DNA from: Podarcis vaucheri
Lineage: Eukaryota
Length of the DNA stretch: 64,000 nucleotides
Assembly (NCBI GenBank): GCA_965113315.1
Contig: OZ220370.1
Reading direction: 5' to 3' (one strand)
This document shows, piece by piece, positions 3,836-63,703 of the stretch. The position numbers and the translations under genes were made by a program. A model generated the notes under the pieces. It had not been told where the DNA came from and did not search any database. It saw nothing but the letters and a program-made list of their open reading frames with translations. Position 1 is the first letter of the stretch; every line of letters begins with the position of its first letter.

Positions 3836-4179
3836 GTACGTGTTACAACTTCATTGTCAAAGAGAATGAATAGCTTAATTGTTGAAGTTTAACATATACC
3901 GCTATTTTAAAATGTGATTATTTTAAATGTCCCAGCTATATAAAATAGCAAATTTTATGATGGAATATGTGTGTGTGTGTCTTTTGCATGCTCATATAAA
4001 ATCTAGAGATTATTTTAAAAACATACTTTATAGTAACAACTTCCTTATTTTGAAAGAATAGTATTCTTTCCACATTCAAATAAGCAAAGCAGTTGCATTG
4101 TGGGAGTTCCATTTTTTTGAGAACTTAACATTTTTTTATTTTATGATGGAATATATGTGTGTGTTTTTAACACTTGATT

Positions 4180-4226
4180 AGAGTGGCTGGGGAAACTCAG
4201 CCAGATGGGCGGGATATAAATAATAA

Positions 4227-4268
<42 letters not shown>

Positions 4269-4280
4269 TTATTTATTTAT
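4180..4280 (+). mobile_element. 3' tail of an L2-type LINE with (TTA)n microsatellite
   Basis: AGAGTGGCTGGGGAAACTCAGCCAGATGGGCGGGATATAAATAATAAA(TTA)n; same motif at 45138 and 60128. Confidence 0.75.
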
Positions 4281-4285
4281 TCCAG

Positions 4286-4529
4286 GCGAAACTGCATTTT
4301 AGCAGATGAAATGGGATTGGGAAAGACGATCCAATCTATTACATTTCTCTATGAGATATATTTAAAAGGAATCCATGGTCCTTTTTTGGTTATTGCCCCA
4401 TTGTCCACAATCCCCAACTGGGAAAGGGAATTCCGTACCTGGACAGAGTTGAATGTTGTTGTATATCATGGGAGTCAAGCCAGTCGAAAGACCATTCAGT
4501 TGTATGAAATGTATTTCAAAGACCCACAG
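4286..4529 (+). CDS. CHD7: CHD7 exon 12 (Walker A: [14 protein letters not shown]...FKDPQ)
   Basis: cag|G...CAG|gtaaat, 244 nt; ORF 4311-4661. Confidence 0.97.
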
Positions 4530-5190
4530 GTAAATGTTTCTACTCTAATAATAACATATGACTTCTTTCTTGTATACTTTATTCTGGATCATTATCCTCT
4601 ATTATTTAAGATAGACATGGGCAGCCTAGGACCACATGTAGCCCTCTACCTTATTGTATGAGGACTTGGTTGTGCCCCCTGTTTCATCCTTTCTATTATC
4701 CATTCCTTCTGCCCCACTTTGTGATGGGGAGGGGGACAGAGAGTTGCATGTATGAGCTCAGCCATGGAGCATGGCAGCAAGAGCAGCGTAGCATTCTTCA
4801 GAAAGGTGCTCTAACCATACATCCCATATTCAGGCCTCCAGGCTCATGTGTGTGCCTACCTCTCCGCTTTCCATAGCCTCTCTGAACCACACCTCTGGGT
4901 GCTGCACATAACAGCACAAATTGCCACTTGGCAAAGAAGGCAGACATGGCACAGTGAGCCAGGTGGACAGAGAGCCCAGAAGAAGGCAGGCATGAGCAGG
5001 GGAGTGGTTAGAACAAGCTCATACCTCTTCTGCTTCTGCAGATTTTAGCTCATGTCTCTTGTCTCTTCTCTAGTTCCAAACCTATTCTATCTATGCCATG
5101 TTTTTACGGATTCTTTGAAAGTGTCCACCCTTCTCAGTGAGGTCCAGCATTCAGCATATTCTATTCATTCTAAATAACATACTGTTGCGT

Positions 5191-5225
5191 CTACACTTGA
5201 GCTTAGTCAAAAGGCCGAAAAGCAT
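5191..5225 (-). pseudogene. U2 snRNA 5' fragment (first ~35 nt)
   Basis: Reverse complement ATGCTTTTCGGCCTTTTGACTAAGCTCAAGTGTAG versus U2 ATCGCTTCTCGGCCTTTTGGCTAAGATCAAGTGTAG. Confidence 0.85.
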
Positions 5226-5320
5226 CAATCAGTAACACATGAATATATTTTGGTAGATGATAATAGGTTGATTCATTTTCAGTGTTGTGTAACCTGATAA
5301 AATACTTTCTGTACTTTTAG

Positions 5321-5497
5321 GGTCGTGCAGTTAAGGGGTCATACAAATTTCATGCCATCATCACTACATTTGAAATGATTTTGACTGATTGTCCTGAGCT
5401 CCGTAACATTCCATGGCGCTGTGTAGTAATCGATGAAGCTCACAGGCTGAAAAACAGAAACTGCAAACTGTTGGAAGGGCTCAAGATGATGGACCTG
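5321..5497 (+). CDS. CHD7: CHD7 exon 13 (Walker B: [11 protein letters not shown])
   Basis: tag|GGT...CTG|gtgagt, 177 nt. Confidence 0.97.
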
Positions 5498-6180
5498 GTG
5501 AGTACTAATACTCTCAAAGCTCCAAGAGATGTCTGTACAGACCATCCCATTAATCCGATGGGAAAGCGGGTGTATGTTTCAGATGGCTTTACTTCTCTTC
5601 TCTTTTTCAATGTAAAATTATGAAAATGCAGAGATCAATTAACAAAAATCCTTTTTCATTTAACATGTTGTGTTAAGAGCTTTCCGTGCTCACTCAAGCT
5701 CCAAAATGCTTTGAAATTGCAGCTTGTAAGGGTCAAAGATGCATTATTTAGGCAATATGGATGTGCTATGGTATCCTATATTGTGATTAGTTCAAGCTTC
5801 ACCACTTCCTTAGAGGTGGATGACTGTCAGTGACAGATGAGTAGACCTATGTCACAGATTTGTGTGTTCACTGGAATAGAAATATGGAGTCTACGCAACT
5901 GAAGCTACCATTCCATGCTGCAAGCACCCAGCTGACAACCTAAACCATTCACACAGAATGATAAAATCTAGAAGAGACCTTGAAGGTCATCTGGTCCAAC
6001 AGCCTACCACAAATAAAGCATTTTATTAAAGCTTCTGGAATTGGAAAATATGAAATATATGCATAGATTATAAAGACAGCCTAATAATTTTAGGATAGAA
6101 ACTAGAAAACTTATCTCGGAAGAATATGCAGCTTCAGAGTTCAGGATTGTAGACTATTCCAGAGTCTTTGTTTCTTGCAG

Positions 6181-6324
6181 GAACACAAAGTGCTTCTTAC
6201 AGGTACTCCATTACAAAACACGGTTGAGGAGCTCTTCAGCTTGCTTCATTTCTTGGAACCAACTCGTTTTCCTTCAGAAACTACTTTCATGCAAGAGTTT
6301 GGTGATCTGAAAACTGAAGAACAG
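6181..6324 (+). CDS. CHD7: CHD7 exon 14 (motif III: LLTGTPLQN)
   Basis: cag|GAA...CAG|gtaaat, 144 nt. Confidence 0.97.
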
Positions 6325-6689
6325 GTAAATCACCCAGTATTAATTTACTTCACTATATGAAACAATTGCTGATTGCTCCAAAACTTGTGGGGCTTTAAGC
6401 TTCTTCAGAACCATTTTCTCTGCTCCCACATGATCACTTACACAGTGGGGGACAAAGCCCTTCTGGCAACCCCTGAAACAGTCACTGGTCCAGAGTGGTG
6501 GTGGGCTGAGTGAACCATGGCATGCCAGATGGTAAATATCCTCTGAAGGCTGACTAAATTTCTGATGTTCAGTTTAGCTAATCTCAAGTACTTGAGCCTG
6601 AGACTCATTCCAGAGGAAAGGAAGTAGTATTTGAACATGACTTATCTATGCAGAGTATAATACTGAGACTAAAAACAAATTAATTAACT

Positions 6690-6747
6690 TGTGAAAAAAG
6701 AAATACAACTTTTAAAAATGTGAAAAAAGAAATACAACTTTTAAAAA
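6690..6747. repeat. Perfect 29-bp tandem duplication
   Basis: TGTGAAAAAAGAAATACAACTTTTAAAAA x2. Confidence 0.9.
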
Positions 6748-8593
6748 TTCAAGGAAATTCTCAATAAAAGTGAACAATTTGCATAACATTTCTCTTTTGC
6801 TTTTATTTTGGAATACTAAGATCCACCTGTTGTTGTTGCTCTTGTTGTAAAAACTGAACTCTAAACAGAAATAAAGCAAATTAAAAACCAAGAACCAGTT
6901 TTTATTAAGAACAGGAGATCAAGTAGACAAGTTGCAGCTTCAACTGGAGGGTATACTCTGTGGGTCGTGTATCAAATAAGATTGAATTCAGGTGACCTTT
7001 GCCATTGATTAGTGCTTTTCCTGTTGCTTTCTGGAGGTGCCAGCAGTTATAGCAGGTGGCCAGTAGAAGCTTTGCTGTGCTCTATATTTGCCCTTGACCT
7101 CTGCAAGACTAGGGGGAAGCATGCTTCACTGCTGACCTTGCTAACAAATTAAACCATAATGAAAAGAGAAAAAAAGAACTTCCACCTGCAATGAGGCATT
7201 CTTAGCTGTGTGAAATATTTGACAGTCCATTGACTGGAATGCCAAACCTAATCCCCCAACCCTTTGTTTTAATGTATCTATTTGGTTGGTTGGTTGGTTT
7301 GTAAGTCACTTTGGGTTGCCTTGGGAAAGATAAATTGACTAACAAATTTAATAAATACTAACAATTTCAGTATCTTACATTCCAATATAGTAAACAATTA
7401 TGCAGACCTATGCAGAATAATATTACATATTTGCTTGTTTATTTGCACATAATAATGAACATTGTGACCTATTTGTAACCCATAGAACTTCCTTCCACAT
7501 AACATGCTTACATAAGAGAGAGAACAAAATTAAGCTCTAGAACTTAGAAAATCTTTCCTGTGCAATCATGTTTAATAGCACAGCATTATATCTGCACAAT
7601 GGTTACCTTTAAAAGCAAGGCTAGAAACTGTTATGCAAACCCTCCTTTAAGCTAGTCAGGGTTAGCACCCATGTAAATGTGACACTGCACCATAATTAGT
7701 GCATATCAGGGAGACTCTTATTTTCTCAGACAATTTGCTTAATTCAAACCTGTGGCTGTATACAGGGGACTAAACAATACATAAAGTGTACCTTCCATAG
7801 ATTCACAATCATTAATACAGGAGTGTCATTTGACTAGAATGTTATTCTGTGTTCCTTTCAGAATTTCAACTGTTCCTGCTGCAATTACTTGTAGAGCCAT
7901 AAATTCCTTTCTTAATTACCTAAATGTTAAATCATACAAATAGGTTTCTGATTGATTATAGAATGTAAAGAAAGGGTACCACAGAAAAAGTGTTATTAAT
8001 TATATGTAACAAGTGTGACTGAATTTGCATAGACAAGGAAAGAAAGGAAGATGATAATTTGAGGCAACTGTACACTCCCAGTCTTCTAATCTTAGTTAGG
8101 AGATGAATCACTAATCAAACTAATAACAAGTAGTGCAAAGTTTAAGTATCATATGAAAAGTTGAGGAAGGCATTAACAAGTGAAGTTTACCAAAATTATG
8201 AATAGTGCTAGGTACTGGAGTTGCTAATAACATTTTAATTTATTGGTGTATTAGCCAAGGTCACATCAGTACAGTTCCTAGAGTTCCATCATGGAAGACA
8301 GGCAGGAAATCTATAAACAAGTGGTGAGCCATGAGCATACTTGAAAGTTGTTGCTTATATTCTGACACTCCCCTCTGCCTATAGTGAAGCCATTGGTGTC
8401 AGCACAGGACACTGTCTTTAGCAGTACATCTCCCTTGCCATATGAGAAAAAGTTATGAATGTTGTGGTCCATCTGGCTCCCACTGTCTCAACTTTCTGAT
8501 ATCACAAAGAATATTTACACCGTGGGGATAGAACCAAAATATAAAAGAGTATGCAAGATTATTATTTTAAACTTCATTCATTTATTTAACTAG

Positions 8594-8849
8594 GTGCAAA
8601 AACTCCAAGCTATCTTGAAACCAATGATGTTGAGACGACTCAAAGAAGATGTTGAAAAGAACCTTGCACCCAAGGAGGAAACCATAATTGAAGTTGAATT
8701 GACAAATATTCAGAAGAAATACTACAGAGCCATTCTTGAAAAGAATTTCACTTTTTTGTCAAAAGGTGGTGGTCAAGCGAATGTACCCAATCTCTTAAAC
8801 ACTATGATGGAATTAAGAAAATGCTGCAATCATCCATACCTTATCAATG
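8594..8849 (+). CDS. CHD7: CHD7 exon 15 ([20 protein letters not shown]...[14 protein letters not shown])
   Basis: tag|GTG...ATG|gtagga, 256 nt. Confidence 0.97.
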
Positions 8850-11718
8850 GTAGGACTGACTTTTTTTAAAAAAACAGAAAACAATGAGGGGAGTTTGGTA
8901 TGTGTGAATAAAAACTAGAAAGCGTTTTTCAGTTGAGCTGAATATATTTTGCTAAATTTTCCTTTTGCATTTTAGACCAGAGTATCAGGACCTAGGCTTC
9001 TCTAACTCTCAAAACACTAAAAGGGTAATAGGACAGGAATGAATTCTCAGAGCTCTAGGCAGCAGCAATAATTTCTAGCTATGTGAGATTGATTAGATCT
9101 ACTGCAATTTACATGCACGTCCTCATGCATTGGAAACTATGAGCGCACTGAGGCAGGACTCTCTGGTGTCCTAGGAAATGCTATGTGGCTTCTTTGTGAC
9201 ATGATGTTAAGTGATGGAGAAAAGGACAACCCCATCTGTTCAGTCATGACAGAAACAGTGTAGCAGTTGAGAGACTCACCTTTCCTCTTCCAGTACTGGG
9301 AAAAATTCAGCCTTCACCACCATAGCTAACAATCTACCACAGCTAGCCATTGGTGGCTACCATCCTGATCCTATTGGTATTGTGATTGCAGGTGTCAGGA
9401 TCCCATTTCACTTTGATGTCCAGCTAGCTTCCCACAGCAAGTGCAACACCTAACTCAATATTTGCCTTGCTGCGCTCCCTCTTAGAGGCTGCAGTCATTG
9501 AGGATGCTAAGTGGAATTTCTCTGTTTCTACTGCAGAAGTGAGCTGCATTCTACACTGGGATCTGAGTCAGGGTGACAGCAGACTGGGATTGTGCCCAGG
9601 ATAGATAGGAAAAAAAACAGACATACTTTAGCAGAGAGCGTGTAAAATACTGTCATTACTATTGAGGCGGGGAGGCTGCAGAGACCATGCCTGGTCAGTA
9701 CACATTCTGTGTATGGACTGGAAATACAATTCCTCTTTACTGCAGTTTTGCAGTTTAAAATACATTGTGGGATTGCAAAGAATTGTAGGGTTATAGTGAT
9801 AGAATAAACAATGGGGAAATCCCCATAGACCATTCAGGTTTAGGATGTAGCAGCCATCCTTAAATCTTCCCATGAATAGAGGATTTGAAGGTCTTTAACT
9901 TATGACAGGCACACAACCTCCAAATGGGACTACTCTCTTAGCAGCTTAAATAGCCCTTGCTGGGGGTGGGAAGTGCTTTTATTGTCTAGTCCCAATTAAC
10001 TACCCACCATGGTTTTGTTTTTTTTTAAAGAGAAGATTCAGGGGTGGGGTGTCGCATCCCTGATTCCAATTTCCTTTTCTCCATTCAGACCTAGAATGAA
10101 GGGAGGCAAATGGTAGGCTAGCCAACATACTGAAGTTTTGTGCTTATGCTCAGCCTTCATGCTGTTCGTACTCTTGGATTTGGTTCTACCCCTTATTTAA
10201 ATTTTTTTAGCCAATATTTAGTATTTGCCTACCTAGTGCTACCCAGTAAATTATATGTTTGAGCAAAGATTTAAATCCTTGTTCCTGCCTTGCTACACCA
10301 CACTGGCCATTTAAAGAGTTTGATATGGTACAATAATAGAAACAATATTTCAAAAACCTGTATACCATTTAATCACATTCCTCCCTAAGTGAGCTGCATA
10401 TGCAAGCTACCCTTGCTGCTCAGCTGTTACTAATTCCATCCAAGTTGTAGGGGAGGGAAGGTGGCTAGGAACACTTTCTCTGAGCTATGAAATGTTTTTT
10501 ATCCCTCTGTAGGCTGAGGGTTCCTGAGGTATGAGTTTTATAGCCTGTTGCAAGTGGCATAAGTCTCGCTCTGAAGCGTGACTGAACCCGGTTAGAGCAC
10601 ATAATCGTACCTACTATGTGGCAGTGCAGGCTACAAAGAAGGCTCATTTTTCAGCATGCATTGCAGCCTCTAGTAGCTGGCCAGTGGAGTTTTTTGGGAC
10701 AGTCTGGAGCTTACTGACCCCCACTGTGGGAAAGAAACCTCTGGAGCATTTGAGGACCCACTGACCAACCGGCAACACACTTTGAGGTAGCTCAACTTCA
10801 GAGTGATCGTGACTCTGCACTTCCTGCAGCCCCAGTTGAAGTACTCAGTGCCAGAATTGATAATGTGTTGTGGGATTGGTTTCAGTTTATACAGTCAGCT
10901 GATGTGGACAAGGTGCTGGCAGCAATATGTTTTCAACCATGTGCCCTCTTGACCCCTGTCCCTCCTGTCTTATTAAACCTGGTCTGACTGGTTGGGTACA
11001 GAGAGTGGCTAATGTTTCACTGCGTGAGTGAATAATCCCTTCTGCTTTGAAAGAGGTGGTGGCATGGCCGCTTCTAAAGAAACCAGCTCCGGACCCCTTG
11101 GGCCCTGAATGGGGTTGCACCTTCACAGTCTGGAGGTACTTCTGGAGGCAGCTTGTCACTGGAGACTAGAAGCACCTTTACCAGCTGTCACTGGTATGAC
11201 AGCTAGGGCCGTTGATGGGGTGCAGGATCTTGGCTTCAGTACTTCCGACATTGCTTACTTCAAGTTTGGATTACTGCAGTGTGCTCTGTGTGGGGCTTCC
11301 CTTGTGCCTGTTTCAGAAAGCTATAGTTAGTGCAGAATGATGCAACATGATTGCTGACAAGAGTGAGACCCTGTCAGCATATAACACCTCTGCTCAGAGA
11401 CCTGCAGTGGTTGCTGATCTTCAACCAGGCCAAGTTCAAGATGTTACTATAAATATATAAAGCCCTTAACAACTTGGGAGCAGGTCCCTTGTGAGATCAT
11501 TTTACCCTACAAATGCCCACCCGACCGCTTCTATCTGCAGAACTGGCACTGTTGCAGGTGCCACATAATACTTGTTCTGCACTCACAAGAAATTGATCTT
11601 TAGTGTGGCAGCACCTATGCTTTGAAACTCCCTGTCTATTGGTGTCAGGCAGACACCTTTACTTTTTGGTGCTTGCTAAAAAGCTTTTTTTTTATTTAAA
11701 AAAAATGCAACCCTATCC

Positions 11719-11862
11719 CCTCCCCACCTTCTCACTATCTAGAAGGATCTGGCAACTTCTGTTTCAGTGTATCTGAAGAAGTGTGCATGCACACGAAAGC
11801 TCATACCAAGAACTAACTTAGTTGGTCTTTAAGGTGCTACTGGAAGGAATTTCTTTATTTTG
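11719..11862 (+). mobile_element. Penelope-like element terminal-repeat fragment nested in the L2 3' region
   Basis: Contains a minimal hammerhead motif; flanked by CCTATCC direct repeats (11712-11718, 11863-11869). Confidence 0.7.
11769..11806 (+). ncRNA. Minimal type-I hammerhead ribozyme motif (Penelope type)
   Basis: GTAT-CTGAAGA-A-GTGTG(CATG)CACAC-GAAA-GC-TC-ATAC: core CUGAnGA/GAAA/UH, stem I GTAT:ATAC, stem II hairpin, palindromic AGCU in place of stem III. Confidence 0.78.
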
Positions 11863-13649
11863 CCTATCCAGACATGTAGAAGCTGTCGTGTGTTTTAATC
11901 TGTTTTTAGCTTATTGTTCATTTCAGTTATTTTTGAAAGTTGTAAATACTTGCTTTTACTGTTTTTAACTGGTCATTTTATTGTTCTTATTCTTTTCATA
12001 AACTGCTTTGAAGTTTTATTACCATTAAACAGTATGTGAATGTTCTGCAATTAATTAAATAAATAAAATGGCCTTGCTGCTCAGCTGGCTAGTAACACCT
12101 TGTCTGAGTTATAAAATATTTTTATCCCTCCGTAGGCTGCAGGTACCTGAGGTATAATAGTTTTATAGTTATTGTACATTTAAAATGCTCTAAAACTCAA
12201 TATTAAGGGGTTTGGTTTGCTGCTTATTTAAATGGATTATCCCTGCTTTAAAAACCTTGTTGTTGAGGGACAATTTCTTGGATGTGTTTTCTGTGTCTAA
12301 ACCTTCCCCCCCCCCCCAGTTACATTAAAACATCAAAAATTGGTTGTAATAGCACAAGTGGTACTAGGACTGTATGTGAGAGATCCAAATAGAAAATAGG
12401 AACAACATGTTGGCAGCTGATCTTCTAAAACTTATTTTGACAAAGTTAATTTAACTAAGCTGATAAAAGTCCTGCTATCAGTGTTCTATTTCAGAAGATG
12501 CACACATACACTTAAATGTGGCAAAATAAAAGGCTATAGCATAAATGTTCTTTATATTTATGTTTCAACCACATAACTTGCTATGTTTGCAAATGAGATG
12601 CATGTTTGTACATGCTTTGTGCTAATGTTTTAGTCTTAATTACTACTTATCAGATGTAAATAAGATGCGAGTCCTCCAGTTCCACTAGAGAAGAGGGAGT
12701 TTCAAACTTGTAACACGTTCTTGCTTTCCATAAAGTGTGCGTGTTCATGTTTATCTTGTTGATCGATAATTAACATGCATTTATATGCAGTTGGTTTGTT
12801 TCTTAAAGAAGCATGTTACTATCATAGCAAAGCTTTTCTGATCAACTGTGTTAGCCACCCCTGCTATAAAAGTTAATGGCTGGAAAATTGTCAGAATTAA
12901 ATATTGAGTCAGTAGTGTGAGATGCTCAATGTGAAGCTGACTTTTTACAAGGCAGTACTTTCTAGACATATGAGGACACCGGAACAATCAGAGGAAGATT
13001 TTGCTGTGTCTTTTTTATATGATATAGATAATTATAGCTGAAGATACTTGGTTGGTTCGCCTTATTTCGTCTTAGACTCTTAGCAAGTTACTATAATTTG
13101 TGTATGATTTGAGCCAGTCAGACAGGCTAGAGCACAGGATAGTCATGGCAACCCTCCGGTGTGTATACGCTTCTGCAGAGCCAGAGTGGTGAGTGGCTAG
13201 TATGTTGGAAACCCAGGTTCAAATCCTTGCTCAACACTAAAGCTCCCAGAGCAAGACATTATCTCTCACTCAGTTGTCATTCTAAATGCCTCTGAGGAAA
13301 GGAAAAATGTAAATACTAAAACCGGCAGTACAATTTGGGACATAAATAATTTCCTGAATTTTTTACCGCAAGAGTCTCTGGCATGTCTTAAGTATGAGTA
13401 ACCTGAAAATAATCACTTGCTTTACTTATCTCCTCTTGCTTTATCTCCTCTCTACTGGAGTTGGCAAGACTGGTTGGCAAAGCATCCTCCATAACAATAT
13501 TTTAGGAATTTTGGAGACTAGTTCTTTCCCCTTAGAGGCACAATATGGCCTAGCTGCCACCGTGCGTCATAAACTTCAGTGTACTTTGTTGGTAGAATGT
13601 GGTGGTATTACTCTGGCGTTAAAAGGGTATTGCTTTGTAACTACTTAAG

Positions 13650-13828
13650 GAAAGGTAGCTTAGTGATAGAGCACCTGTTATTCATGCAAAGCACCAGATT
13701 CAGTCTTTGGCATCTCCAGGTAGGGCTGGGAAAGATTCTTCTTTAAAAACCTGAAGAGTCACTGCCAGTCAGTGTTGAGCCAGATAGTCCAATGGTCTGA
13801 CTTCATATAAGACTGAGTTCTATGTTTT
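13650..13828 (+). mobile_element. tRNA-derived SINE (Squam3-like), degenerate
   Basis: A-box-like TAGCTTAGTGATAGAGC and body GGCATCTCCAGGTAGGGCTGGGAAAGA...CCAATGGTCTGAC; related copy at 63704. Confidence 0.65.
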
Positions 13829-14730
13829 ATGTACTGATCAGAAACTTCATTAACACCACATGTGTGTTTTCATTGAAATAGGATACAAAATTTGAGTGTG
13901 TGTTTTAATAGGAACAAGTAACATCAGCACAACGGTCTACAGTGCTAATGAACATGAAACATGGGCAGGAAATAGTCAGAAAATGGGTTGTTACTTATGC
14001 TTGATCCAACTGTCAGGCACTCCCTGCTGGAAAGGTGATAATGCCTGTTTGGACCAAAAGTGGACCCATGGCTATTGGACAATGCTGCCTCTAAAGACTT
14101 GGCATTAACATTAGAATGCATAGTATTTCTGGGGGTCTCCCCTGAAATTTTTTAATAAATGTCCCTTTGGAAGGGGTCATAAGTGTTTCTGTTGGGACCC
14201 CCTAAGGCCCGAGCACACCAAATTTATGTAGACTGCTTGTTCCTCACTTTGTAAGCTAACAAGTGTCCATTTTGCCTCACACTAATCTTTGCCTTGTAAA
14301 AATTTGGGATATTTAAATTAGAATGTGTTTATCATCAGAATACTGCTACCGTAATGAACTATTACTATTGCACTTTGACTGTTAATACTGATAGGTTTCT
14401 AAGACCCTTTTTGAAAAAGGATTGGCTTTGCCATTACATCTTTCAACCTAGCTGTTAGATATTGTCTTTATATCCTTAATTTACTAATTAATTATTCAAT
14501 CACTCCTTCCCCCCTAATTTGTTATGACATCTGGCTTGGCACCTCTTTGTTGTTGTGAAACTTGTTTGCTGGAAGCTTTTGGGTTCATTGTTCATTTGCG
14601 CTTCCATATTTTCCATGTTATTTTTAGCTAAGCAAATGCAGCTATGTAAATATTTCTTCACTTATAAAATCCATAGACATTGTATAGGGAACTGGAAACA
14701 GGCTCGTAGTTTTATTAATAAAACCTTTAG

Positions 14731-14870
14731 NNNNNNNNNNNNNNNNNNNNNNNNNNNNNNNNNNNNNNNNNNNNNNNNNNNNNNNNNNNNNNNNNNNNNN
14801 NNNNNNNNNNNNNNNNNNNNNNNNNNNNNNNNNNNNNNNNNNNNNNNNNNNNNNNNNNNNNNNNNNNNNN
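14731..14870. other. Sequence gap (140 N) covering the 5' part of CHD7 exon 16
   Basis: N run. Confidence 0.99.
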
Positions 14871-14974
<104 letters not shown>

Positions 14975-24495: not shown

Positions 24496-25345
24496 AGTTT
24501 TTCCCATTTTCAGATAGTTTTCTAGCATCATTGGGAGTGAATATAATTGCGTGTTTGGTTATATCAATTTAATCTTTGACTGGGAGCATACGATTATAGC
24601 TTCAAAACAGTTTTACAGCATGTCAGAGGTGTTACATTGTAAATTTGAACTAGGTTCCGTTCCGTTGTCATCCAATCTAGGCAGGTGAAATAGTAGTAAA
24701 TTTGGCAGAACTTTTTTTCCCCCTTTTAATCCTGTCTTTAGGAAACACTGACTTTTCCGTTCTCAGAAGCAAAAAATTGTACAATCGTAACAAGCCTGAC
24801 ATTCCNNNNNNNNNNNNNNNNNNNNNNNNNNNNNNNNNNNNNNNNNNNNNNNNNNNNNNNNNNNNNNNNNNNNNNNNNNNNNNNNNNNNNNNNNNNNNNN
24901 NNNNNNNNNNNNNNNNNNNNNNNNNNNNNNNNNNNNNNNNNNNNNNNNNNNNNNNNNNNNNNNNNNNNNNNNNNNNNNNNNNNNNNNNNNNNNNNNNNNN
25001 NNNNNNNNNNNNNNNNNNNNNNNNNNNNNNNNNNNNNNNNNNNNNNNNNNNNNNNNNGGTTGGGCTGAGCTCGATCCCTCTCTGTNNNNNNNNNNNNNNN
25101 NNNNNNNNNNNNNNNNNNNNNNNNNNNNNNNNNNNNNNNNNNNNNNNNNNNNNNNNNNNNNNNNNNNNNNNNNNNNNNNNNNNNNNNNNNNNNNNNNNNN
25201 NNNNNNNNNNNNNNNNNNNNNNNNNNNNNNNNNNNNNNNNNNNNNNNNNNNNNNNNNNNNNNNNNNNNNNNNNNNNNNNNNNNNNNNNNNNNNNNNNNNN
25301 NNNNNNNNNNNNNNNNNNNNNNNNNNNNNNNNNNNNNNNNNNNNN

Positions 25346-25938: not shown

Positions 25939-27262
25939 GTAAGTGATGTCTCACTTCGAACAGAACTCCTTGGTAAAAGCTTTCTGTGTATACCAATATT
26001 CAGTCACAATATTAACAAGTGTAGTTCCAAAGAATTGTTGGCTTCTCGCTCCTTTTTTCCTTCTGCATTGAAAAAAAAATCTATTTGAGTTGTAAATATC
26101 AGATGCTGTTTTTAAATGTTTGCAGAACATTTCTGGAGAAAACATTACTTCCTTGGCTGTAAATAACACAAAACCATATTTGTTTAAATAATAGCCAAGT
26201 AGTATTATAGATCTCCATAAACTCCGCTTCCAGCACTGTTTCACTTGCNNNNNNNNNNNNNNNNNNNNNNNNNNNNNNNNNNNNNNNNNNNNNNNNNNNN
26301 NNNNNNNNNNNNNNNNNNNNNNNNNNNNNNNNNNNNNNNNNNNNNNNNNNNNNNNNNNNNNNNNNNNNNNNNNNNNNNNNNNNNNNNNNNNNNNNNNNNN
26401 NNNNNNNNNNNNNNNNNNNNNNNNNNNNNNNNNNNNTACANNNNNNNNNNNNNNNNNNNNNNNNNNNNNNNNNNNNNNNNNNNNNNNNNNNNNNNNNNNN
26501 NNNNNNNNNNNNNNNNNNNNNNNNNNNNNNNNNNNNNNNNNNNNNNNNNNNNNNNNNNNNNNNNNNNNNNNNGCAGTTAAGGACAGTGTGTTGTAGTACA
26601 AATCCTAATTGAATTGTGCTGTTCTGCCTATGTACAGCAGCTCTGTTTTGTGGGCTCAGCTGAGGCAAGTCTAGTCTAAAAATCATTTTCTTGCTGTGCA
26701 CTGTTGGGATCTGCCATTTTCCATCTAGTCAACTTGGATGGCACAGAAAAGTAAACAGCAGTTTGAAAACCATGGAGGGAACGGTGTCATCTTACTGACA
26801 TGCATCATCCTAAACCGAATAAGACAGGTTTGCTGGCCTTACGTATTTTCCCATGTATGCATTTCCAACTGTAAGTGCCAGTTTCAATAGGGCTAGTACC
26901 ATTGAAAGGAAGGTGAGTTGGGGGATGTTAAATCTAGAGGTGAAAGGGTAACTAATAAAAAGCTTTGTGCATGGCTACTGCTCCCATTTTTTTGCCTTGC
27001 TCGCCCACTCACCCAGCCAAACACTGCCTGGAAATCTTTAATGTCTCCATGCTTTCCACAGGTGTATGGCACATTCTTGTTTGTAATGAAAGGAAGTAGA
27101 AATGTGGAAGTAGAACTTGTCTTCACACATTCTTGTATGTCATGGGAACGGAAAAGTAGAAATGCAGTTTTCTCGTTCTGCATCAGTATAAAAGTGTCAT
27201 TCACATGGAGCTATTTTGTTTATACTTGTGGGTGCTTGGTGTGTTTTTCTGTCTGGGTGCAG

Positions 27263-40099: not shown

Positions 40100-40788
40100 C
40101 TGTGAAACGGTAGCTACCCGCTTTGGTGGACATTTGTAACTGCTTCATTATTAGTGTACGACTGTCTTAGGAATACCTATTAAATACAAGATTAATACAC
40201 AATTGATTATGGAATAAAACCTTCCATGCTTGTAATAAAACTTGTTCTTTGATTAAGTATGTAGACTGCCTTGTTTGAGTTCTGTGAGGAATTTCCCTGT
40301 TCTCAACCTCAGGCATTGGACATGGTGTGTGCAGAGGCATTCTGTTTCTTAAAACCTAGAAGCCTAGTACTTGTCAGACAAAGGACCACATCATGTTTAA
40401 TTTGCTTCGGATTTTGCAAGGCTTTATAAATCTGGTGTGTTTATCGTATCAGATTTCTTTGGAAGTCTCGTCTTCGGAGCATTACCTACTGTTTCTGGTT
40501 TCTTTGTTTTTACCATTGTTTTGTTTACTATATCATATTGATGATGTTGAAGGGAGAGCTTATTTACTGGACAATGCTCAAAGGTATGATCTGGCCTTTA
40601 ATGGGAGGAGGGAAAGGGCTGCTTTGTGAACAAGATCTAATTGGCAGCATACCTGTTCTTTTCCTTGCCCTTGGGATTATACGCTCTGCTTTGTCATGTG
40701 AGCCGCCCTACATGAAATTCTAAATCGGTAGGCATCCCCGTAGGTAGAAGCGTAACAGCATGGAATGTTTTTTCTTCCCCATATGCAG

Positions 40789-41757
40789 GGTTTTGTTCCA
40801 GAGTCCATGTTTGACCGTCTTCTCACAGGACCTGTTGTGCGAGAAGAGGGAGCAAGCAGAAGAGGGAGAAGGCCAAAAAGCGAAATTGCCAAAGCAGCTG
40901 CAGCAGCTGCTGCTGTAGCTTCAACTTCGGGAATTAACCCACTGCTGATGAACAGTCTGTTCGCTGGAATGGATCTCACGAGCCTTCAGAATTTGCAGAA
41001 CCTACAGTCTCTCCAGCTTGCAGGTCTCATGGGCTTCCCTCCAGGACTAGCGACAGCTGCTGCCGCTGCTGCTGCTGCTGGGGGTGATTCTAAAAATCCA
41101 GCTACCATGCTGCCTCTGATGTTGCCAGGTATGGCAGGGTTGCCCAATATGTTTGGACTCAGTGGATTGTTGAATAACCCAATTACAGCTGCTTCTGGAA
41201 ACACCACTATGGCTTCCAGTCAAGGAGAAACTTCTGAAGATGGCACTTCAAAAGTAGAAGAAAAGAAGACTGAGAATGAAGAGGAGAACAAAGACTCTGA
41301 GAAAAGCACAGACACTGTTTCTGCTACTGACTCCGCAAATGGATCTGTCAGTGTAACTGCTGCCGCCGCTGCAGCAGCAGCAACCACCACCACCACCACC
41401 ACCACAGGATTGCCTGCCAACCCTCTGACCTTCAATCCTTTCCTTCTGTCCACCATGGCTCCTGGCCTGTTCTATCCTTCTATGTTTCTACCTCCAGGAC
41501 TGGGAGGATTGACACTACCTGGTTTCCCAGCATTAGCAGGACTTCAGAATGCAGTGGGCTCCAGTGAAGTGAAGGTTACTGATAAAACTGAAGGAGCTGC
41601 CTTTAAAGATGAAGAAAATCTAGAGGGCAGTGATGCAGAGGAGAGCCTTGATAAAACTGCAGATTCCTCTGCTTTAGAAGATGAAATAGCACAGGGTGAA
41701 GAATTAGACTCGCTTGATGGGGGGGATGAATTAGAAAACAATGAAAATGATGAGTAA
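40789..41757 (+). CDS. CHD7: CHD7 exon 38, terminal coding part ([15 protein letters not shown]...ENNENDE*)
   Basis: cag|GGT; ORF 40765-41757 ends in TAA; characteristic CHD7 C-terminus. Confidence 0.97.
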
Positions 41758-53064: not shown

Positions 53065-53734
53065 AGTTCTTCATCTGTTTGTACAATTCCATTCCTAGAA
53101 TTGACCTGTTGGTTATTTGGCTTTCAGTCTTTGCAGGGATCTCACATCTTTGCTGATTTGAACTGAACATAGAAAAATGAAAACTTTACTATTGTAGAAG
53201 GGAAGAGAAATACTCCGTTGTAATACAAGCATCCTGATTTCTAACATCTATTGGTGGAAATGGGATCTCCTAGTTTTATGGAACTAAGTATTTTGAAGTA
53301 TGCAATTTTTTTTTTTAAAAAAAAGCTTGCAGATTTCATGAAAATCACACATTCACTTGGCTTGCCTCCTATGAGCCCCTTGTTCATATTACATAGTAAA
53401 GTGTACCTATTTTCTGTTGTCAAACCATGCTACAGAGTAGAAATACAGTATTTCTCTTTTAAAAGGAGAGTCCTTTATTTCTGCATTAAAAGATGCAAGC
53501 GATACAATGTGTAAGTACCTTAAGAGGTAAAATGTTATGCAAAGTGATGGTGCAAAATGAATACTCCACATGCTTTCATAAGATGCTGGCACAGCTTTGT
53601 GAAAATCCTTCTGTATGAAAAAATATAACATGGAGTGACTTCAACCAGAGACACTGGGATTTGCCTATCTCAGTAGAAAGCTGTAACCATTTTGGAATTA
53701 TTGTTTCATGACACATTTGATTACAAATAATATA

Positions 53735-54000
53735 CACCCTTGTGCAAATTAATTGAAACAAAGCATGTTTTCTATCTTACTCATAATCCTGTACTCAAAA
53801 CAAACACGAAAAGACAGTTGATCATTATGGTATCGGAAGCCTGCAGCCAATGGAAGGAATGATGCACTCGCCATAATATATTGAAGCTCTACGAAAGAGA
53901 GTTATCCCAGAGCTGGAAAAGAGGTATCCCTGTATGTATGTATATGTGAGTTTTATACAATAAATTGCATTGTTTGTTTCAATTAATTTGCACAAGGGTG
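53735..54000 (+). mobile_element. Tc1-family short deletion derivative (MITE-like)
   Basis: Perfect TIR beginning CACCCTTGTGCAAATTAATTGAAACA, TA on both sides, transposase remnant shared with 60247-60978. Confidence 0.92.
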
Positions 54001-55439
54001 TACAATGTCCAGAACTCCATCCACCTCTTAGTGTTATGGGCTTAATGGGGAAGTGCCTGTGTATTTAGCGATGCACATACAGTATGACACATGGTTGCTT
54101 ATTCTGCCCTGATAGAATAGCTGCAGTGTGGAGTGGACATCCATTTGCAGAACCAACATTGGATCATGCAATGGAACTTTCTCCCCTCCCCTCCTCTTCA
54201 GCACCTTCAAAATCTGCTCCAGGGGATTGAGGGAATAATAGATTCCGTTTGCTTTATCATGTGTTGGAAATTAATTAGCTCAGTGTGGGCAATATAAATG
54301 AGTCAGGCAAACCTGAGTACAATTCCCACCTGTCCCCTCCTCCAGCAGAGCACTCCTTTCAACAGCTCTGTAGAAAGCTATGCAAAATTTAAAAATCTGA
54401 CCCTTGGATCTTCATACTGTTTTTATTTACATCTGTATTAATTTAATACTATAGGTATTGTAATTTGAAACCGTAAGGTGGCATCTCTAGCTAAGTCATA
54501 CTCAGAGCGGACACACTGAAATTCATTGCATAGTTGGAAACTATTCTAACCATGTCTACTCAGAAGTAAGTCCTATTGAATTAACTGGGGCCTACTGCTA
54601 TGTAAATTGGGTTAGAATTTCAGCCTTAGTGATTATTGGGAGGGGGGAGGGGGAATCCTCGTCACAGAAAAAACTTTATATCCAAGCCCTCTCATAGCCC
54701 CACATGCGTTTCCAAGTCTATATAAATGCCTGCTGAGCAACTTGTTGAGCTTTCCCCAAGTAATGAATGGTATCTGTCCTCTAAACAAATGGGAAGAGGA
54801 GCCCCGACATAATAAAGCCAGAGCCTAGGACACCGAAGAGATTTCATTCCCATAAATTGCATCTCTATTACACTTTGAGTATATTCACATTGAGAATGTC
54901 CAAATAAGATGAGGAGAGGGCCTAATTCATTTTATAAGCAGGGCTTTAAATCTCAACATGAACCTGTGCTGCAAAATTAATTATGGTTGAGATGGATGGA
55001 AGGGGAAATTCACACCAATAATGAAAAGTCCCATATCCTGCTTTGGCAATCCCTGTAATAGTTTTGACAAGACAGGGGAAAGCATTCATAAACATTAAAA
55101 CACTAAAAGGAAAACAGAAAAAGCTTACATTCAAAGGGAGGAGTGGTCACTTACCAAGGTTAAGCCAGGTTCAAGGTGAGGCCAAAGAAACCCCATCTCC
55201 AACCCCACCCAAATAATAAAGGACTAACAGAACCTGGGGAGAAGACACAACTGGCTCCCTCCTCGTCTCCTCAAAGGACAATTCTAAGTAGCATATTCAT
55301 GATGCCAGTCAAGGTAGCTAGCTTCATGTATAAGCTTAGACATGCATGTAAGCATTTTAAGTGCATACAAAGAACACGTAAAGTATAAATGCAATAGGTA
55401 AATACTGAAACTTCGGTATGAAGAATACTCATGGGAGAC

Positions 55440-60127: not shown

Positions 60128-60190
60128 CTGGGCAAACCCAGCCAGATGGGTGGGGTAGAAATAATAAATTGTCATCCTCATCCTCATCCT
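60128..60190 (+). mobile_element. L2-type LINE 3' tail fragment
   Basis: GGGCAAACCCAGCCAGATGGGTGGGGTAGAAATAATAAA. Confidence 0.65.
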
Positions 60191-60246
60191 TGGGAAGGGA
60201 ATTCCAAAACTACAGTGCCACCATACAGAAGGCCCCCTTTCCAGTG

Positions 60247-60978
60247 CACCCTTGTGCAAATTAATTGAAACAAAGCATGTTTTCTATCTTACTCGTAATC
60301 CTGTACTCAAACATGAAAAGTCAGTTGATCATTATGGTGTCGGAAGCCTGCAGCCAATAGAAGGAATGATGCGCTCACCACAATATATTGAGGTTCTATG
60401 GAAGAGAGTTATTTCAGAGCTGGAAAAGAGGTATCCCGACAGTGCTGAGATATTGCAGCAGGACCTAGCCCCCTGTCACACATTGAAAGTGATGAAGAAA
60501 TTCATGACAGAGCAGCAAATACAGGTACTTGATTGGTCAGGGAATTCCCTGGACATAAATCCCATTGAGAATTTGTGGGCTATATGCAAAAGTTGCCTCC
60601 ATGCTGTAGACTGTACATTGAGCAGCTCATTCAGGTGCTGATTCAAGTGTGGTACAGGGATGTGAAAATCAACAGTGGCTGTTCAAAACTAGTAGACTCC
60701 ATGCCAAACCGTGCTCAAATGCTGCTTAAAAATAGCGGAGGTCATATCCGTTATTAATGTATGCATATGTGAGTTTTGTACAATAAATTGTTGTTGTTGT
60801 TGTTGTTTAGTCGTTTACTTGTGTCCGACTCTTCGTGACCCCATGGACCAGAGCACGCCAGGCACTCCTGTCTTCCACTGCCTCCCGCAGTTTGGTCAGA
60901 CTCATGTTTGTAGCTTCGAGAACACTGTCCAACCAGTAACAATAAATTACATTGTTTCAATTAATTTGCACAAGGGTG
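60247..60978 (+). mobile_element. Tc1-family (DD34E) transposon, internally deleted, with a frameshifted transposase C-terminus
   Basis: Same TIRs as 53735; ORF QQD-LAPCH...DWSGNSLDINPI-E (34 residues between D and E), then LVDSMPNR...GGHIRY in another frame. Confidence 0.92.
60790..60935 (-). mobile_element. RTE-BovB LINE 3' end nested in the Tc1 element
   Basis: (TTG)n tail, then TTTAGTCGTTT..GTGTCCGACTCTTCGTGACCCCATGGACCAGAGCACGCCAGG; flanking repeat ACAATAAATT (60780-60789, 60939-60948). Confidence 0.85.
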
Positions 60979-63703
60979 TAGGTACCTGCCTCACTTCTGA
61001 AGGCAGGAGAATCTGGATAAGAGACTTGGAAGCTTAGCTTAATTGACAGGCAGGTTTGTACGGGACAAGATAACACTACAAAAAATGCTGAAAACCACCC
61101 TCCCCCTATAAGAACAACTGACTTGGGTGGTTTTCCAGAGGATCAACCAACTAGAGCAGTCCTTACCAACCTTATGCTCTCCAGATGTTTGGGCAACAGT
61201 TGTAGTCCAAACATCTGGAGACCAGGTTGGCAAGAGATCCACTGGAGTTTGAAATTTTCACCCTTCCCACGTAGGTCTTCTCAGTTAACTTGTAATCTCC
61301 ATGGCTGCATTTTGTAATGATCATTTATTTTAAAAGTCTTGGGGGAAATCTGCATGAGATGTAGCTGGCAGCTGTGTGTAATGTCACTTCACCTCTGGGC
61401 TTCAGTTTCATGACTGTTTGCCCCTCAGTATATCTCTAAGTCCCACCATACCTTCCTTCTGAGCCTCCCATTATCCTGGACTGGTCACATTCCATTTGCA
61501 TATCGACAAGTCATCTCCTAACTCCTAGAAATTATTCTGTCATTGTGGGATACGACAAAGCCAGAAAAACAGTGCATTGTTTTTGCTTTGGAAGTTGCTG
61601 TTTGTGTTTGGAGAATGGTGTTTTATTAGTGTTACTCCAGATAATTTTTATCTTATGCTTAGAATGCTTTGAAGTGCTTCAGTTTAACAATAACATTTTG
61701 AAGGCTTTGAGAGTTCAGTAGCTGCAGGCAAACACTTTAGGAAGCCCTAAAGACAGCAGGGTCTCTGGGGAAGAGCAAGAGGCAGGGGCTTCTGAGAATA
61801 TAAACTGGGAAAGGAGCACAAAGCTTGCAGCACCAGGCTCCTGAACTCTTATTCCCAACAATGCTGTTATTTGGTTTTATGGTAACCAGCGACAATGACA
61901 CTGTCACGGCTAGTGACAGAGGAGTGCTCACATCTTCCCTGGAGGAAACTGAAGTGCCAAAGCTGGGGAGTCCCAAAGCTTGAGTGGTGCTGTATTGCAC
62001 TCTAAATGAGATCCTTGCTTCCCAGGGGATGAATCAAAGAATAAAAGCTGTGGCTTTCTGTATGGATTTGCACGAATTGAGGAGACCTGCACAGCCAGAA
62101 TGTCTCCAGGACACCCACGCAGCAGAGCATGTTGTGAGGGTGGGACCCGACTTTCCAATGTGCTCGTGGAACACGCAAATCTGCAAACATATAAAAAGCA
62201 ACATAGACCACTGTTTCCCCACCCCACCCATTTCTTTCTTGTCCGAATGGTTTTCTCTAACACTAGTTCTTCCAGCTCTGATGTTCCTAAAAAGAACAGC
62301 TCAAATTTCAAGTTGGTGTGGCTTGCTCTTCAACAAGATGATAATGGATAGTTACTCTGGTTTTCATTTGTGCCTCTGTGCGAGGTTATTAAGTATCACT
62401 TAAAGGGCTGGTCGATGACATGAAGGCACATGAAAGCAGCCCTCCGCAGATAATGCACGCTGTGACTGCGTAGCTCCAGAAACCATCTTGTGAGAGGGTG
62501 GACAACTGGGCCACACAATATTCTTCTCTACAGGAACCTTGTACTGTATCTGAAGCCATCACAGGGAGTTGAACAGAGGCTGTTTGGAGCTCTAAGGCAG
62601 GTTCTGCCCTGCGTTAGCCCCTTTTTGCCTGCAAAGAATACCTCCCTTTATAGATGAATCCATATTATCTGGACTTGGGTGTTTGGTTTCTTAAATTCTC
62701 AGTGGGGTGGTGGTGATTTGAGTTCCGAGGAGAACAATATGTAGTTCCTTTGTCATGAACTGGAGCAGTTTTTCAATAACTCCTAATTTTTGCAGGGATT
62801 GGGAACCTATTTATTTATTTACTAGATAGTTAAACGTTCTCTAGAAGGCTTAAAACATACAACTTTATTTGCTTGTTTTCTTTTAGGAATTGCTTCCTAT
62901 GAAACATCAAGAGCAACCCACGTGGGAATCAGGGCTGGTCAGTTCACACATGCAGACTTAAAAGTTTCCTCCTGTACGTATCCACTCAGGCAGGGGTGGG
63001 GAACCTGTTACTCTCCTGTTTACCTTACAAGCATTTTTGCATCTCTACTGAGATAATGTATGTAGAACTCTTTTAAAAATTATGGCAAAATGCTATATAA
63101 ATGCCAAGTGTTTGTTACTACTCTCACAATCCTAATAATCAGAATCTAAAGAAAAATATGATATTACTGTGGGTGGATTTATCATGAGGAAGAAACCTGT
63201 AGGTCTGGGGAACTTTTAAAAGCAGATTTTGTGGTACACCATTCTTGGCTGCTGGGCGTGCTGGTTGGGGCTGCTGGGAGTTGGGACTAAAAAAAAAAAC
63301 AAAAAACAAAAACTTGAGTGACCACAGGCTCATCTCTTCTTTAAAGAGTGGCCTGATCACACCCTGAGATGTGACAAAAGAATGCTAATACTTATTAATG
63401 GTCCAGGATGGCCAGTAGATGCCCCTTTGTGGGAGCTAATTGTTAGAAGATCCTTTCTTGGGACAGAGATCTCTCTGGAATGTTTGGAATGGGAAAGCTT
63501 CAGACTTTGAAGAGGGGTGTCTGGGTAGTGTGAAGAAAGGGCAATTTGGGAAGATAGTCAGCAGGGAGCTGAAGGCACCTAGTGGATTATGTGTATCCCC
63601 TGGGGATCAGTTGCAACAGATCACATCTGCACCTGGTAGGACTGCACATACTGTTTGCTTCCATTTATGCCGTATATTACAGAAGCCTAGTAAGTCTCCC
63701 CTT

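What the first reader, a model, noticed from the sequence alone, without database searches (positions are those of the whole stretch)
11769..11806. Intact minimal hammerhead ribozyme in sense orientation in CHD7 intron 15
Seen, in order: stem I GTAT (11769-72), core CTGAAGA (11773-79), extra A (11780), stem II GTGTG-CATG-CACAC (11781-94), GAAA (11795-98), GC, TC (U16.1/C17, predicted cut after 11802) and stem I' ATAC (11803-06). A further TTC:GAA pairing is possible after an internal loop. Stem III is reduced to the palindrome AGCU. The motif sits in a ~145-bp insert bounded by CCTATCC repeats inside an L2. Established: Penelope-like retroelements carry such minimal type-I hammerheads, which work mainly as dimers through the palindromic stem III. 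An extra A between A9 and G10.1 is a tolerated natural variant. Inference: each CHD7 pre-mRNA carries one catalytic half-unit. It could be cleaved only by pairing in trans with another copy, either another CHD7 transcript or another element-bearing RNA. That would be a copy-number-dependent cutting route in a dosage-sensitive gene. The ribozyme class is known and any function here is speculative.
Basis: partly seen in the sequence, partly recalled or inferred. Interest (0 to 1): 0.75.

Follow-up and report, generated by a model that had tools for sequence, protein, structure and literature searches.

The report
Solo Penelope hammerhead in CHD7 intron
A complete small "hammerhead" self-cutting RNA motif sits in an intron of a reptile CHD7 gene, but it is one copy of a very abundant repeat, likely the leftover end of a Penelope-type jumping gene, and it is predicted to be folded shut and unlikely to cut the CHD7 message.

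Summary
The motif is real at the stated coordinates. It is the only minimal hammerhead in 64 kb (strict descriptor: 0 of 300 shuffles) and lies in a 144-bp insert between CCTATCC repeats, sense to CHD7. Contigs of two related species pile on the insert at about 53,000-60,000 times single-copy depth, and the family runs on past both insert edges. This is a truncated solo copy of a very abundant repeat that matches the minimal hammerheads of Penelope-like elements described in 2014, most closely the turtle motif. No Penelope ORF could be linked here. Nothing supports cutting of CHD7: no partner lies in cis, the core is predicted to be paired shut in pre-mRNA context, the 4-bp dimer handle is weak, family RNA shows no pile of ends, and published motifs cut poorly or need the element's protein. 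CHD7-specific reads were too few for a direct test. One side lead: many family copies begin exactly at stem I, often after an extra G, as if the ribozyme opens the element's capped RNA. This scan has reported the same kind of motif repeatedly in shark and fish introns. Ordinary; interest low.

The parts
11769..11772 (+). Hammerhead stem I, 5' strand (GTAT); 11769 is also where many family copies begin
   Evidence: loose ends before 11769 in 4 of 4 runs (table 7)
11773..11779 (+). Catalytic core CUGAAGA (C3-A9), intact
11780..11780 (+). Extra A between A9 and G10.1, a hallmark of Penelope minimal hammerheads
   Evidence: listed as a conserved feature in PMC4209133
11781..11794 (+). Stem II hairpin, 5 bp with G10.1-C11.1 and loop CATG; the 14 nt are a perfect palindrome
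11795..11798 (+). GAAA (G12-A15.1)
11798..11801 (+). Palindrome AGCT, the only stem III material; 4-bp self-duplex of -2.5 kcal/mol
11802..11802 (+). C17; predicted cut after this base
   Evidence: standard hammerhead numbering (recalled)
11803..11806 (+). Stem I, 3' strand (ATAC)
11719..11862 (+). 144-bp insert: truncated solo copy of a very high-copy repeat, likely a Penelope-like terminal repeat that lacks its tail
   Evidence: depth 935,981 vs 15.5 (X11) and 4,399,140 vs 82.6 (X3); family sequence continues before 11717 and behind 11862/11867; no second copy in the window
11712..11718 (+). Left CCTATCC, likely target-site duplication (its last 2 bases may be shared with the element)
   Evidence: family reads align up to 11717
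11863..11869 (+). Right CCTATCC
11755..11767 (+). Segment complementary to the core (10 bp with a 3-nt bulge, -7.5 kcal/mol); it also reads as a pyrimidine tract plus CAG, like a splice acceptor
   Evidence: 13 of 1000 shuffled and 4 of 1000 random 15-nt flanks pair the core as strongly; noticed after the fact
11736..11745 (+). Degenerate TATA-like stretch about 30 nt upstream of 11769 (inferred promoter remnant, untested)
   Evidence: sequence; interpretation is inference
10567..12070 (+). Older host repeat, LINE-like (L2 by recalled motifs; left edge approximate), interrupted by the insert
   Evidence: raised depth from bin 10567 on and joints that bypass the insert; decayed frames; no library hit
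10411..10543 (+). Left copy of a ~90-bp direct repeat that flanks the host repeat (83% identical to the right copy)
12072..12168 (+). Right copy of the flanking direct repeat
8594..8849 (+). CHD7 exon upstream of the host intron (SNF2 domain; exon 15 by recalled human numbering)
8850..14762 (+). Host CHD7 intron, about 5.9 kb; its 3' end falls in the N gap and is estimated from the recalled exon size

Best explanation
This is an intact minimal hammerhead motif inside one truncated, solitary copy of a very abundant repeat, likely the terminal repeat of a Penelope-like retroelement, and in CHD7 pre-mRNA it is predicted to stay folded shut and likely does not cut. Shown: the motif, the 144-bp insert with flanking 7-bp repeats inside an older repeat, the very high family depth, the family sequence beyond both edges, and no partner in 64 kb. 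Inferred: the element's reverse transcriptase copied the end of a Penelope-type RNA from the T-rich region near 11862 back to 11719 and inserted it at a staggered nick. The motif's working context is the element's own RNA, where a second repeat in tandem supplies the other half of stem III and the element's protein likely helps folding. In the intron the partner is missing, flanking sequence pairs with the core, and the intron is likely spliced out with the motif uncut. Further inference, weaker: the element's own capped RNA starts at the first base of stem I (11769), so most short copies would be cDNAs running from the tail to the cap, while this copy, which reaches 50 nt further upstream, would come from a read-through (downstream) repeat.
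For: Descriptor met, 0 of 300 shuffles as good. All four features named for Penelope minimal hammerheads are present. The published turtle motif has the same core and AGCU palindrome and differs by one compensated pair in stem I and one in stem II (read by eye). Depth ratio about 60,000 (X11) and 53,000 (X3) over the insert bin; 7,800 and 17,675 contigs laid. RNA reads on the insert come in both directions (322/303 and 169/131), and 95% and 99% of laid reads run on into unlike sequence, so they come from other copies. No place with many molecule ends (table 6). Folding: stem I probability at most 0.02 and core-sequestering helix about 0.93-1.0 in the 280- and 460-nt contexts; core paired 0.74-0.99 in all 20 of 20 windows that start at or before 11755. 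Approximate active dimer -11.1 against -13.6 for two monomers and -30.6 for the non-catalytic duplex. Literature: no monomer activity and low cis-dimer activity; 1 of 9 cis dimers active; anole motif needs protein and is dispensable for insertion in vitro; 5' truncation and an optional 30-40-bp tail are typical of these elements.
Against: No Penelope reverse-transcriptase or GIY-YIG ORF was tied to this family: no genome is held, 0 of 20 window ORFs scanned hit either domain, and six collection scans were empty. The depth ratio is not a true copy number (the tool says so). The copy is fully intact in core and both stems, which selection could also explain; I could not measure how many copies are intact, because the variant table was cut (149 rows hidden). 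Nearest-neighbour folding ignores tertiary contacts, Mg2+, proteins and co-transcriptional order. CHD7-unique intron bins had no RNA reads and the exon had depth 0 (X23) and 2.6 (X21), so in vivo cutting of this copy is untested, and the RNA runs are from a related species in which the orthologous insert is not shown. Against the simple 'open only when started at 11769' picture: RNA starting at 11769 has stem I at 0.70-0.85 up to a 3' end of 11830, but about 0.005 once it reaches 11845, because downstream sequence then pairs with the core.
Confidence: 0.88

Rival explanations
1. One reading: each CHD7 pre-mRNA carries a half-ribozyme that is cut after pairing in trans, through AGCU, with another CHD7 transcript or another family RNA, perhaps helped by the element's protein, which lowers CHD7 output in a copy-number-dependent way.
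For: Intact core in sense orientation. Family RNA is present: about 4.6e-5 and 2.6e-5 of all bases read. The anole element's protein enables cutting in vitro. Retrozymes are under-represented in frog introns, which hints at some cost.
Against: The handle is 4 bp, -2.5 kcal/mol; the active dimer is predicted uphill from monomers and a 14-bp palindrome offers a stronger, non-catalytic pairing. The core is predicted to be sequestered. A rough count with textbook cell values (my assumption: 6e8 nt of mRNA, 0.5 pL) gives under 1 nM of sense family RNA. No pile of ends at about 625-fold and 300-fold depth (weak, since fragmented RNA-seq does not capture such ends well). Tens of thousands of copies make a sense copy in a given large gene unremarkable.
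Confidence: 0.03
2. The insert affects CHD7, if at all, through splicing: 11755-67 reads as a pyrimidine tract plus CAG with a branch-like CTCAC at 11731-35, a cryptic acceptor in sense orientation that could open a poison exon.
For: Sequence. In D. virilis the element's intron ends at the 5' end of helix I, the same arrangement. One RNA run shows 52 reads with a loose end before 11767.
Against: The main boundary is 11769/11770, which a splice at 11767/11768 would not give, and it is present in DNA contigs too. Two other AGs lie between the branch-like site and the CAG. No joint from the CHD7 exon to 11768 is among the rows shown, but exon depth was only 0-2.6.
Confidence: 0.04
3. The family is a non-autonomous unit (non-LTR retrozyme monomer or SINE-like derivative) that borrows Penelope enzymes, not the end of an ORF-bearing element. 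The conclusion for CHD7 would be the same.
For: Very high copy number, short copies with a preferred start at 11769, no ORF linked. Reptile retrozyme units average 176 bp and occur as monomers.
Against: No tandem unit in the window. The family continues on both sides of the insert. The same preprint derives such units from Penelope terminal repeats, so this is a shade of the main reading.
Confidence: 0.15
4. Chance resemblance to a hammerhead in intronic DNA.
For: No Rfam hit; the 38-nt fold is not more stable than shuffles (z -0.44); the bare core pattern occurs in 8 of 100 shuffles.
Against: 0 of 300 shuffles match the full architecture; it lies in a discrete high-copy insert; compensated pairs against the turtle motif.
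Confidence: 0.01

Closest known systems
Minimal type I hammerheads (min-HHR) of metazoan Penelope-like elements (Cervera and De la Pena 2014, PMC4209133), especially the Chrysemys picta bellii motif in its supplement
   Same: Core CUGAAGA plus extra A, G10.1-C11.1, short stem I (4 bp), no intramolecular stem III, palindromic AGCU, mostly solitary dispersed copies; thousands per genome reported in frog and coelacanth, similar motifs in turtle and snakes.
   Different: Stem I and stem II each differ from the turtle motif by one compensated pair; loop II is a 4-nt palindrome; family depth suggests tens of thousands of copies, more than the 4,000-9,000 motifs counted in that paper; no ORF link shown here.
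Poseidon element of Anolis carolinensis, PAc (Frangieh et al. 2024, PMC11167929)
   Same: Lizard Penelope-like element with a hammerhead in the terminal repeat, followed by an optional tail where reverse transcription starts; no RNA-seq ends at the cut site.
   Different: Different sequence family by eye; PAc's ORF starts at stem II, whereas the ATG in loop II of this copy meets a stop after 8 codons; protein-assisted cutting is shown for PAc only.
Non-LTR retrozymes of animals (Li, Clavereau and Pollet 2026 preprint, 10.64898/2026.07.22.740005)
   Same: Short non-coding type I hammerhead units related to Penelope terminal repeats, with solo monomers spread along chromosomes and about 42-44% of frog copies in introns.
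   Different: An active retrozyme is defined there by at least two tandem units; this locus has one unit and no tandem partner.
Canonical hammerheads in Rfam
   Same: Same catalytic core letters.
   Different: No stable stem III and no recognisable loop-loop contact; no Rfam hammerhead model matched even at E 10 on 601 bases.

Membership tests
Minimal hammerhead of Penelope-like elements | Core CUGANGA ... GAAA ... UH in type I order | tested here: met
Minimal hammerhead of Penelope-like elements | [quoted passage not shown] | tested here: met
   A11780; feature
Minimal hammerhead of Penelope-like elements | G10.1-C11.1 pair and a formed stem II | tested here: met
   5 bp, pair probability 0.97-0.98 in the isolated 38-mer
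Minimal hammerhead of Penelope-like elements | Palindromic 15.2-16.2 with no intramolecular stem III | tested here: met
   AGCT 11798-11801
Minimal hammerhead of Penelope-like elements | Member of a large dispersed genomic family | tested here: met
   depth ratio about 5-6e4 in two related species; not a true count
Minimal hammerhead of Penelope-like elements | Compensatory changes in stems | tested here: inconclusive
   two compensated pairs against the turtle motif, by eye; within-family variants hidden by the cut table
Minimal hammerhead of Penelope-like elements | Self-cleavage as a dimer | not testable with these tools
   needs an assay; RNA-seq showed no pile of ends
Penelope-like element (autonomous, EN+) | Terminal repeat joined to a reverse transcriptase plus GIY-YIG ORF | not testable with these tools
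   no genome held; no such domain in 20 window ORFs scanned; collection scans empty
Penelope-like element (autonomous, EN+) | 5' truncation and an optional 3' tail | tested here: met
   family sequence continues before 11717 and behind 11862/11867; variable 3' ends at 11844-11862; features
Penelope-like element (autonomous, EN+) | Partial tandem or inverted arrangements in the family | tested here: inconclusive
   single contigs join 11801-11838 back to 11767-11779 (table 5c), kind of joint not shown; this locus is solo
Active non-LTR retrozyme | At least two tandem units with complete motifs | tested here: not met
   one unit in 64 kb; definition
Canonical hammerhead (Rfam) | Match to an Rfam hammerhead model | tested here: not met
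L2 LINE (host repeat) | Detectable ORF2 homology | tested here: inconclusive
   recalled motifs visible in decayed frames; no hit

The most novel reading that the evidence does not exclude
The tens of thousands of dispersed half-hammerheads are a latent genome-wide cutting network: when the Penelope element is derepressed, its protein and RNA unfold the blocking hairpin and pair with sense-strand intronic copies, so host pre-mRNAs such as CHD7 are cut in proportion to element activity.
Probability: 0.03. Interest if true: 0.7.

Novelty: new member of a known kind. Interest (0 to 1): 0.13.

Why it matters
As found, it matters little: it adds one reptile locus to a ribozyme class described in 2014 and already studied biochemically in a lizard. 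It would matter if the motif cut CHD7 RNA in trans, because that would give a transposon-dose route to a dosage-sensitive gene and the first in vivo job for these motifs; the evidence is against it. The family-level lead is more realistic: if the element's capped RNA starts at the first base of stem I, the ribozyme is placed to remove the cap from the element's own RNA, which would give a concrete, testable role for a motif whose function the literature calls unclear. I put that lead at about 0.3 probability and 0.35 interest.

Tried and rejected
Own genome: none held, so no copy count, strand-bias test, family alignment or link to a full-length element. Rfam on the whole window at gathering scores: 0 hits; at E up to 10 on 601 bases: 2 chance lncRNA hits. 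Exact and degenerate motif scans of viral, metagenome and prokaryote collections: 0 hits in 6 of 6 scans. Earlier findings by sequence, by place and by a start-site wording: nothing. No RNA holder of the stretch was listed; this is no evidence either way. Presence of the insert at the orthologous site in organisms B and F: not settled, since none of the 16 listed pieces (26,192 hidden) spans an insert edge. Fold stability as evidence for the motif: rejected, z-scores -0.88 to +0.69 in 4 of 4 folds. 'Stem I is specially suppressed by the native upstream flank': rejected in that form, 78 of 300 shuffled flanks gave as low a stem I probability; only the pairing of the core is above shuffles. 'The ribozyme is open whenever RNA starts at 11769': contradicted for 3' ends at or beyond 11845. 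L2 label: Pfam, Atlas and homolog search gave nothing. Exon numbering from papers: not found. Lunse, Weinberg and Breaker (RNA Biol) is not held; I saw only its title and a review's account of it. Supplement text of PMC11167929 held no searched term; its figures, which show copy ends, could not be seen and may bear on the 11769 lead. Passages of PMC6431247 and PMC2386082 gave nothing of use.

Full report
Observation. A type I minimal-hammerhead descriptor run on both strands of the 64 kb found this motif only. Of 300 block-wise dinucleotide shuffles, 7 held a relaxed hit, 2 a hit with a palindromic stem III, and 0 a hit with stem II of 5 bp and stem I of 4 bp as well. Rfam has no match, and the 38-mer is no more stable than its shuffles; the signal is the motif's architecture, not its energy. 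CCTATCC stands at 11712-18 and 11863-69, so the insert is 144 bp, and it has no second copy in the window.

Host gene and host repeat. The + strand carries SNF2 and helicase exons and a BRK exon that matches solved CHD7 domains at E 1e-29 and CHD8 at 2e-11, so the gene is CHD7 and the motif is sense to it. The upstream exon is 8594-8849 and the next exon ends at 14973, with its acceptor in an N gap. 'Intron 15' is human numbering that I recall. The insert interrupts an older repeat with about 220-255 times single-copy depth in its best-covered bins; paralogous contigs join its two sides without the insert (5 such joints among the 15 rows shown, 126 hidden). That repeat is flanked by a ~90-bp direct repeat of 83% identity. 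Its decayed frames show motifs that I recall as L2-like, but no library confirmed this. I recall the insert family from lacertid lizards; no call names the organism. Penelope-like elements were not found in birds or mammals, which fits a reptile.

What the insert is. No genome is held, so I used public runs. The region is held by runs of six organisms. I laid 4 of the 24 listed runs, with one bin set exactly on the insert. In contigs of organisms F and B the insert bin has summed depth 935,981 and 4,399,140, against 15.5 and 82.6 in unique intron: ratios of about 60,000 and 53,000. The tool warns that this is no copy number, so I take it as an order of magnitude. Family sequence continues with a shared consensus before 11717 (agreement 0.71-0.77) and behind 11862/11867 (up to 0.94), and other copies end at 11844-11862. 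This locus is therefore a piece, cut at both ends, of a longer and very common element. The motif has all four features that Cervera and De la Pena list for Penelope minimal hammerheads (PMC4209133; I read parts 1-2 of 4 of the text, and part 2 of 3 of its supplement). The closest printed relative is the painted-turtle motif: same core, same AGCU, one compensated pair in stem I and one in stem II, read by eye. 5' truncation and an optional 30-40-bp tail are typical of these elements (PMC8557442, passages; PMC11167929, parts 1-3 of 4). I could not tie the family to a Penelope ORF, so 'Penelope-like' rests on the ribozyme type and the shape of the copies; a non-autonomous derivative remains possible.

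Does it cut CHD7? No partner lies in cis. In print, a single motif showed no cutting and cis dimers and trimers low cutting; 1 of 9 frog cis dimers cut (preprint 10.64898/2026.07.22.740005, parts 1-3 of 5); the anole motif cut only with the element's protein, was not needed for insertion in vitro, and left no RNA-seq ends at its cut site. A review says the same of dimers (PMC6765202, passages). Folding of this copy adds three points. First, in native context the core is predicted to be paired: 11755-67 is complementary to it (10 bp, 3-nt bulge, -7.5 kcal/mol), the helix has probability about 0.93-1.0 in 280- and 460-nt contexts, and stem I is about 0. Shuffled flanks pair the core as strongly in 13, 40 and 18 of 1000 trials for 15, 30 and 50 nt, and random window segments in 4 and 36 of 1000; I noticed this feature before testing it, and low stem I probability by itself is not special (78 of 300 shuffles). 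Second, the dimer handle is 4 bp and -2.5 kcal/mol; my approximate sum for the catalytic dimer is -11.1, against -13.6 for two monomers. Third, stem II with its loop is a perfect 14-nt palindrome, so two copies that meet would prefer an extended duplex of -30.6 that has no stem III. These models ignore tertiary contacts and proteins.

RNA. In two raw-read runs of organism F (about 12% and 6% of each read), 1,335 and 775 reads were laid, nearly all on the insert, in both directions, and 95% and 99% of them run on into unlike sequence: they come from other copies. Library strandedness is unknown. The family makes up 4.6e-5 and 2.6e-5 of bases read; with textbook cell values, which are my assumption, that is under 1 nM of sense RNA. 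No place showed many molecule ends (table 6), a weak negative for this kind of library. The CHD7 exon had depth 0 and 2.6 and the unique intron bins 0, so the CHD7 copy itself was not sampled, and the orthologous insert in organism F is not shown.

A side lead. Among the 24 loose-end rows shown (1,465 hidden), a boundary before 11769, the first base of stem I, appears in 4 of 4 runs with mixed flanks (agreement 0.37-0.47), and nearby at 11767 and 11770 in the RNA runs. The flank consensus ends in G in 3 of those 4 rows. Among the 12 joint rows shown (27 hidden), 4 land on 11769 and all 4 have G just before it, where the window has T. Extra 5' G is taken as a sign of a copied cap in LINE-1 (PMC2831318, passage), Penelope repeats hold promoters (PMC2377424, passages), and a degenerate TATA-like stretch lies about 30 nt upstream. 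I infer that the element's capped RNA may start at stem I, that many short copies are cDNAs from tail to cap (reverse transcription starts internally in the anole element), and that cutting after position +34 would remove the element's own cap. RNA starting at 11769 folds stem I at 0.70-0.85 up to a 3' end of 11830 but about 0.005 from 11845 on, so any active window would be co-transcriptional or need protein. An alternative is a splice acceptor at 11767/68, as in D. virilis, but it does not explain a boundary at 11769 in DNA. The evidence is a few rows of cut tables; probability about 0.3.

Comparison and verdict. It works like, and by the features testable here belongs to, the minimal hammerheads of Penelope-like elements; it fails the tandem criterion of an active retrozyme and the Rfam canonical models. 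Eight earlier notes of this scan describe the same kind of motif in other genomes, mostly shark and fish introns, several in sense orientation, all judged ordinary; they are unchecked and I use them as context only. New member of a known kind; interest 0.13.

Noticed in passing
window 11767-11770: Family copies often begin at the first base of stem I, with mixed flanks and mostly a G just before (4 of 4 shown joints, 3 of 4 loose-end consensuses), like a cap-derived G at a transcription start.
   Followed up: partly
window 11755-11767: Segment complementary to the catalytic core, also shaped like a splice acceptor; a second core-pairing segment lies downstream, within about 11831-11845.
   Followed up: partly
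window 11781-11794: Stem II plus loop is a perfect 14-nt palindrome, which favours a non-catalytic homodimer.
   Followed up: partly
window 10411-10543 and 12072-12168: A ~90-bp direct repeat (83% identical, with a 37-bp extra piece in the left copy) flanks the LINE-like repeat, unusually long for a target-site duplication.
   Followed up: no
window 53733-54003 and 60168-60980: Two related repeats with ~29-bp terminal inverted repeats; the longer holds a DDE_3 fragment (E 3.6e-5), likely a decayed Tc1/mariner element and a short derivative.
   Followed up: no
window 14731-14870, 24806-25057, 25086-25345, 26249-26436, 26441-26572: Five N runs; the first covers the start of a CHD7 exon.
   Followed up: no
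window 40756-41757: Last CHD7 coding exon holds long alanine and threonine runs.
   Followed up: no
window 12151-12582: No contig depth in organism B (run X3) over three bins, while organism F is covered: a deletion or a filter hole.
   Followed up: no
window 61162-61234: 73-bp imperfect inverted repeat.
   Followed up: no
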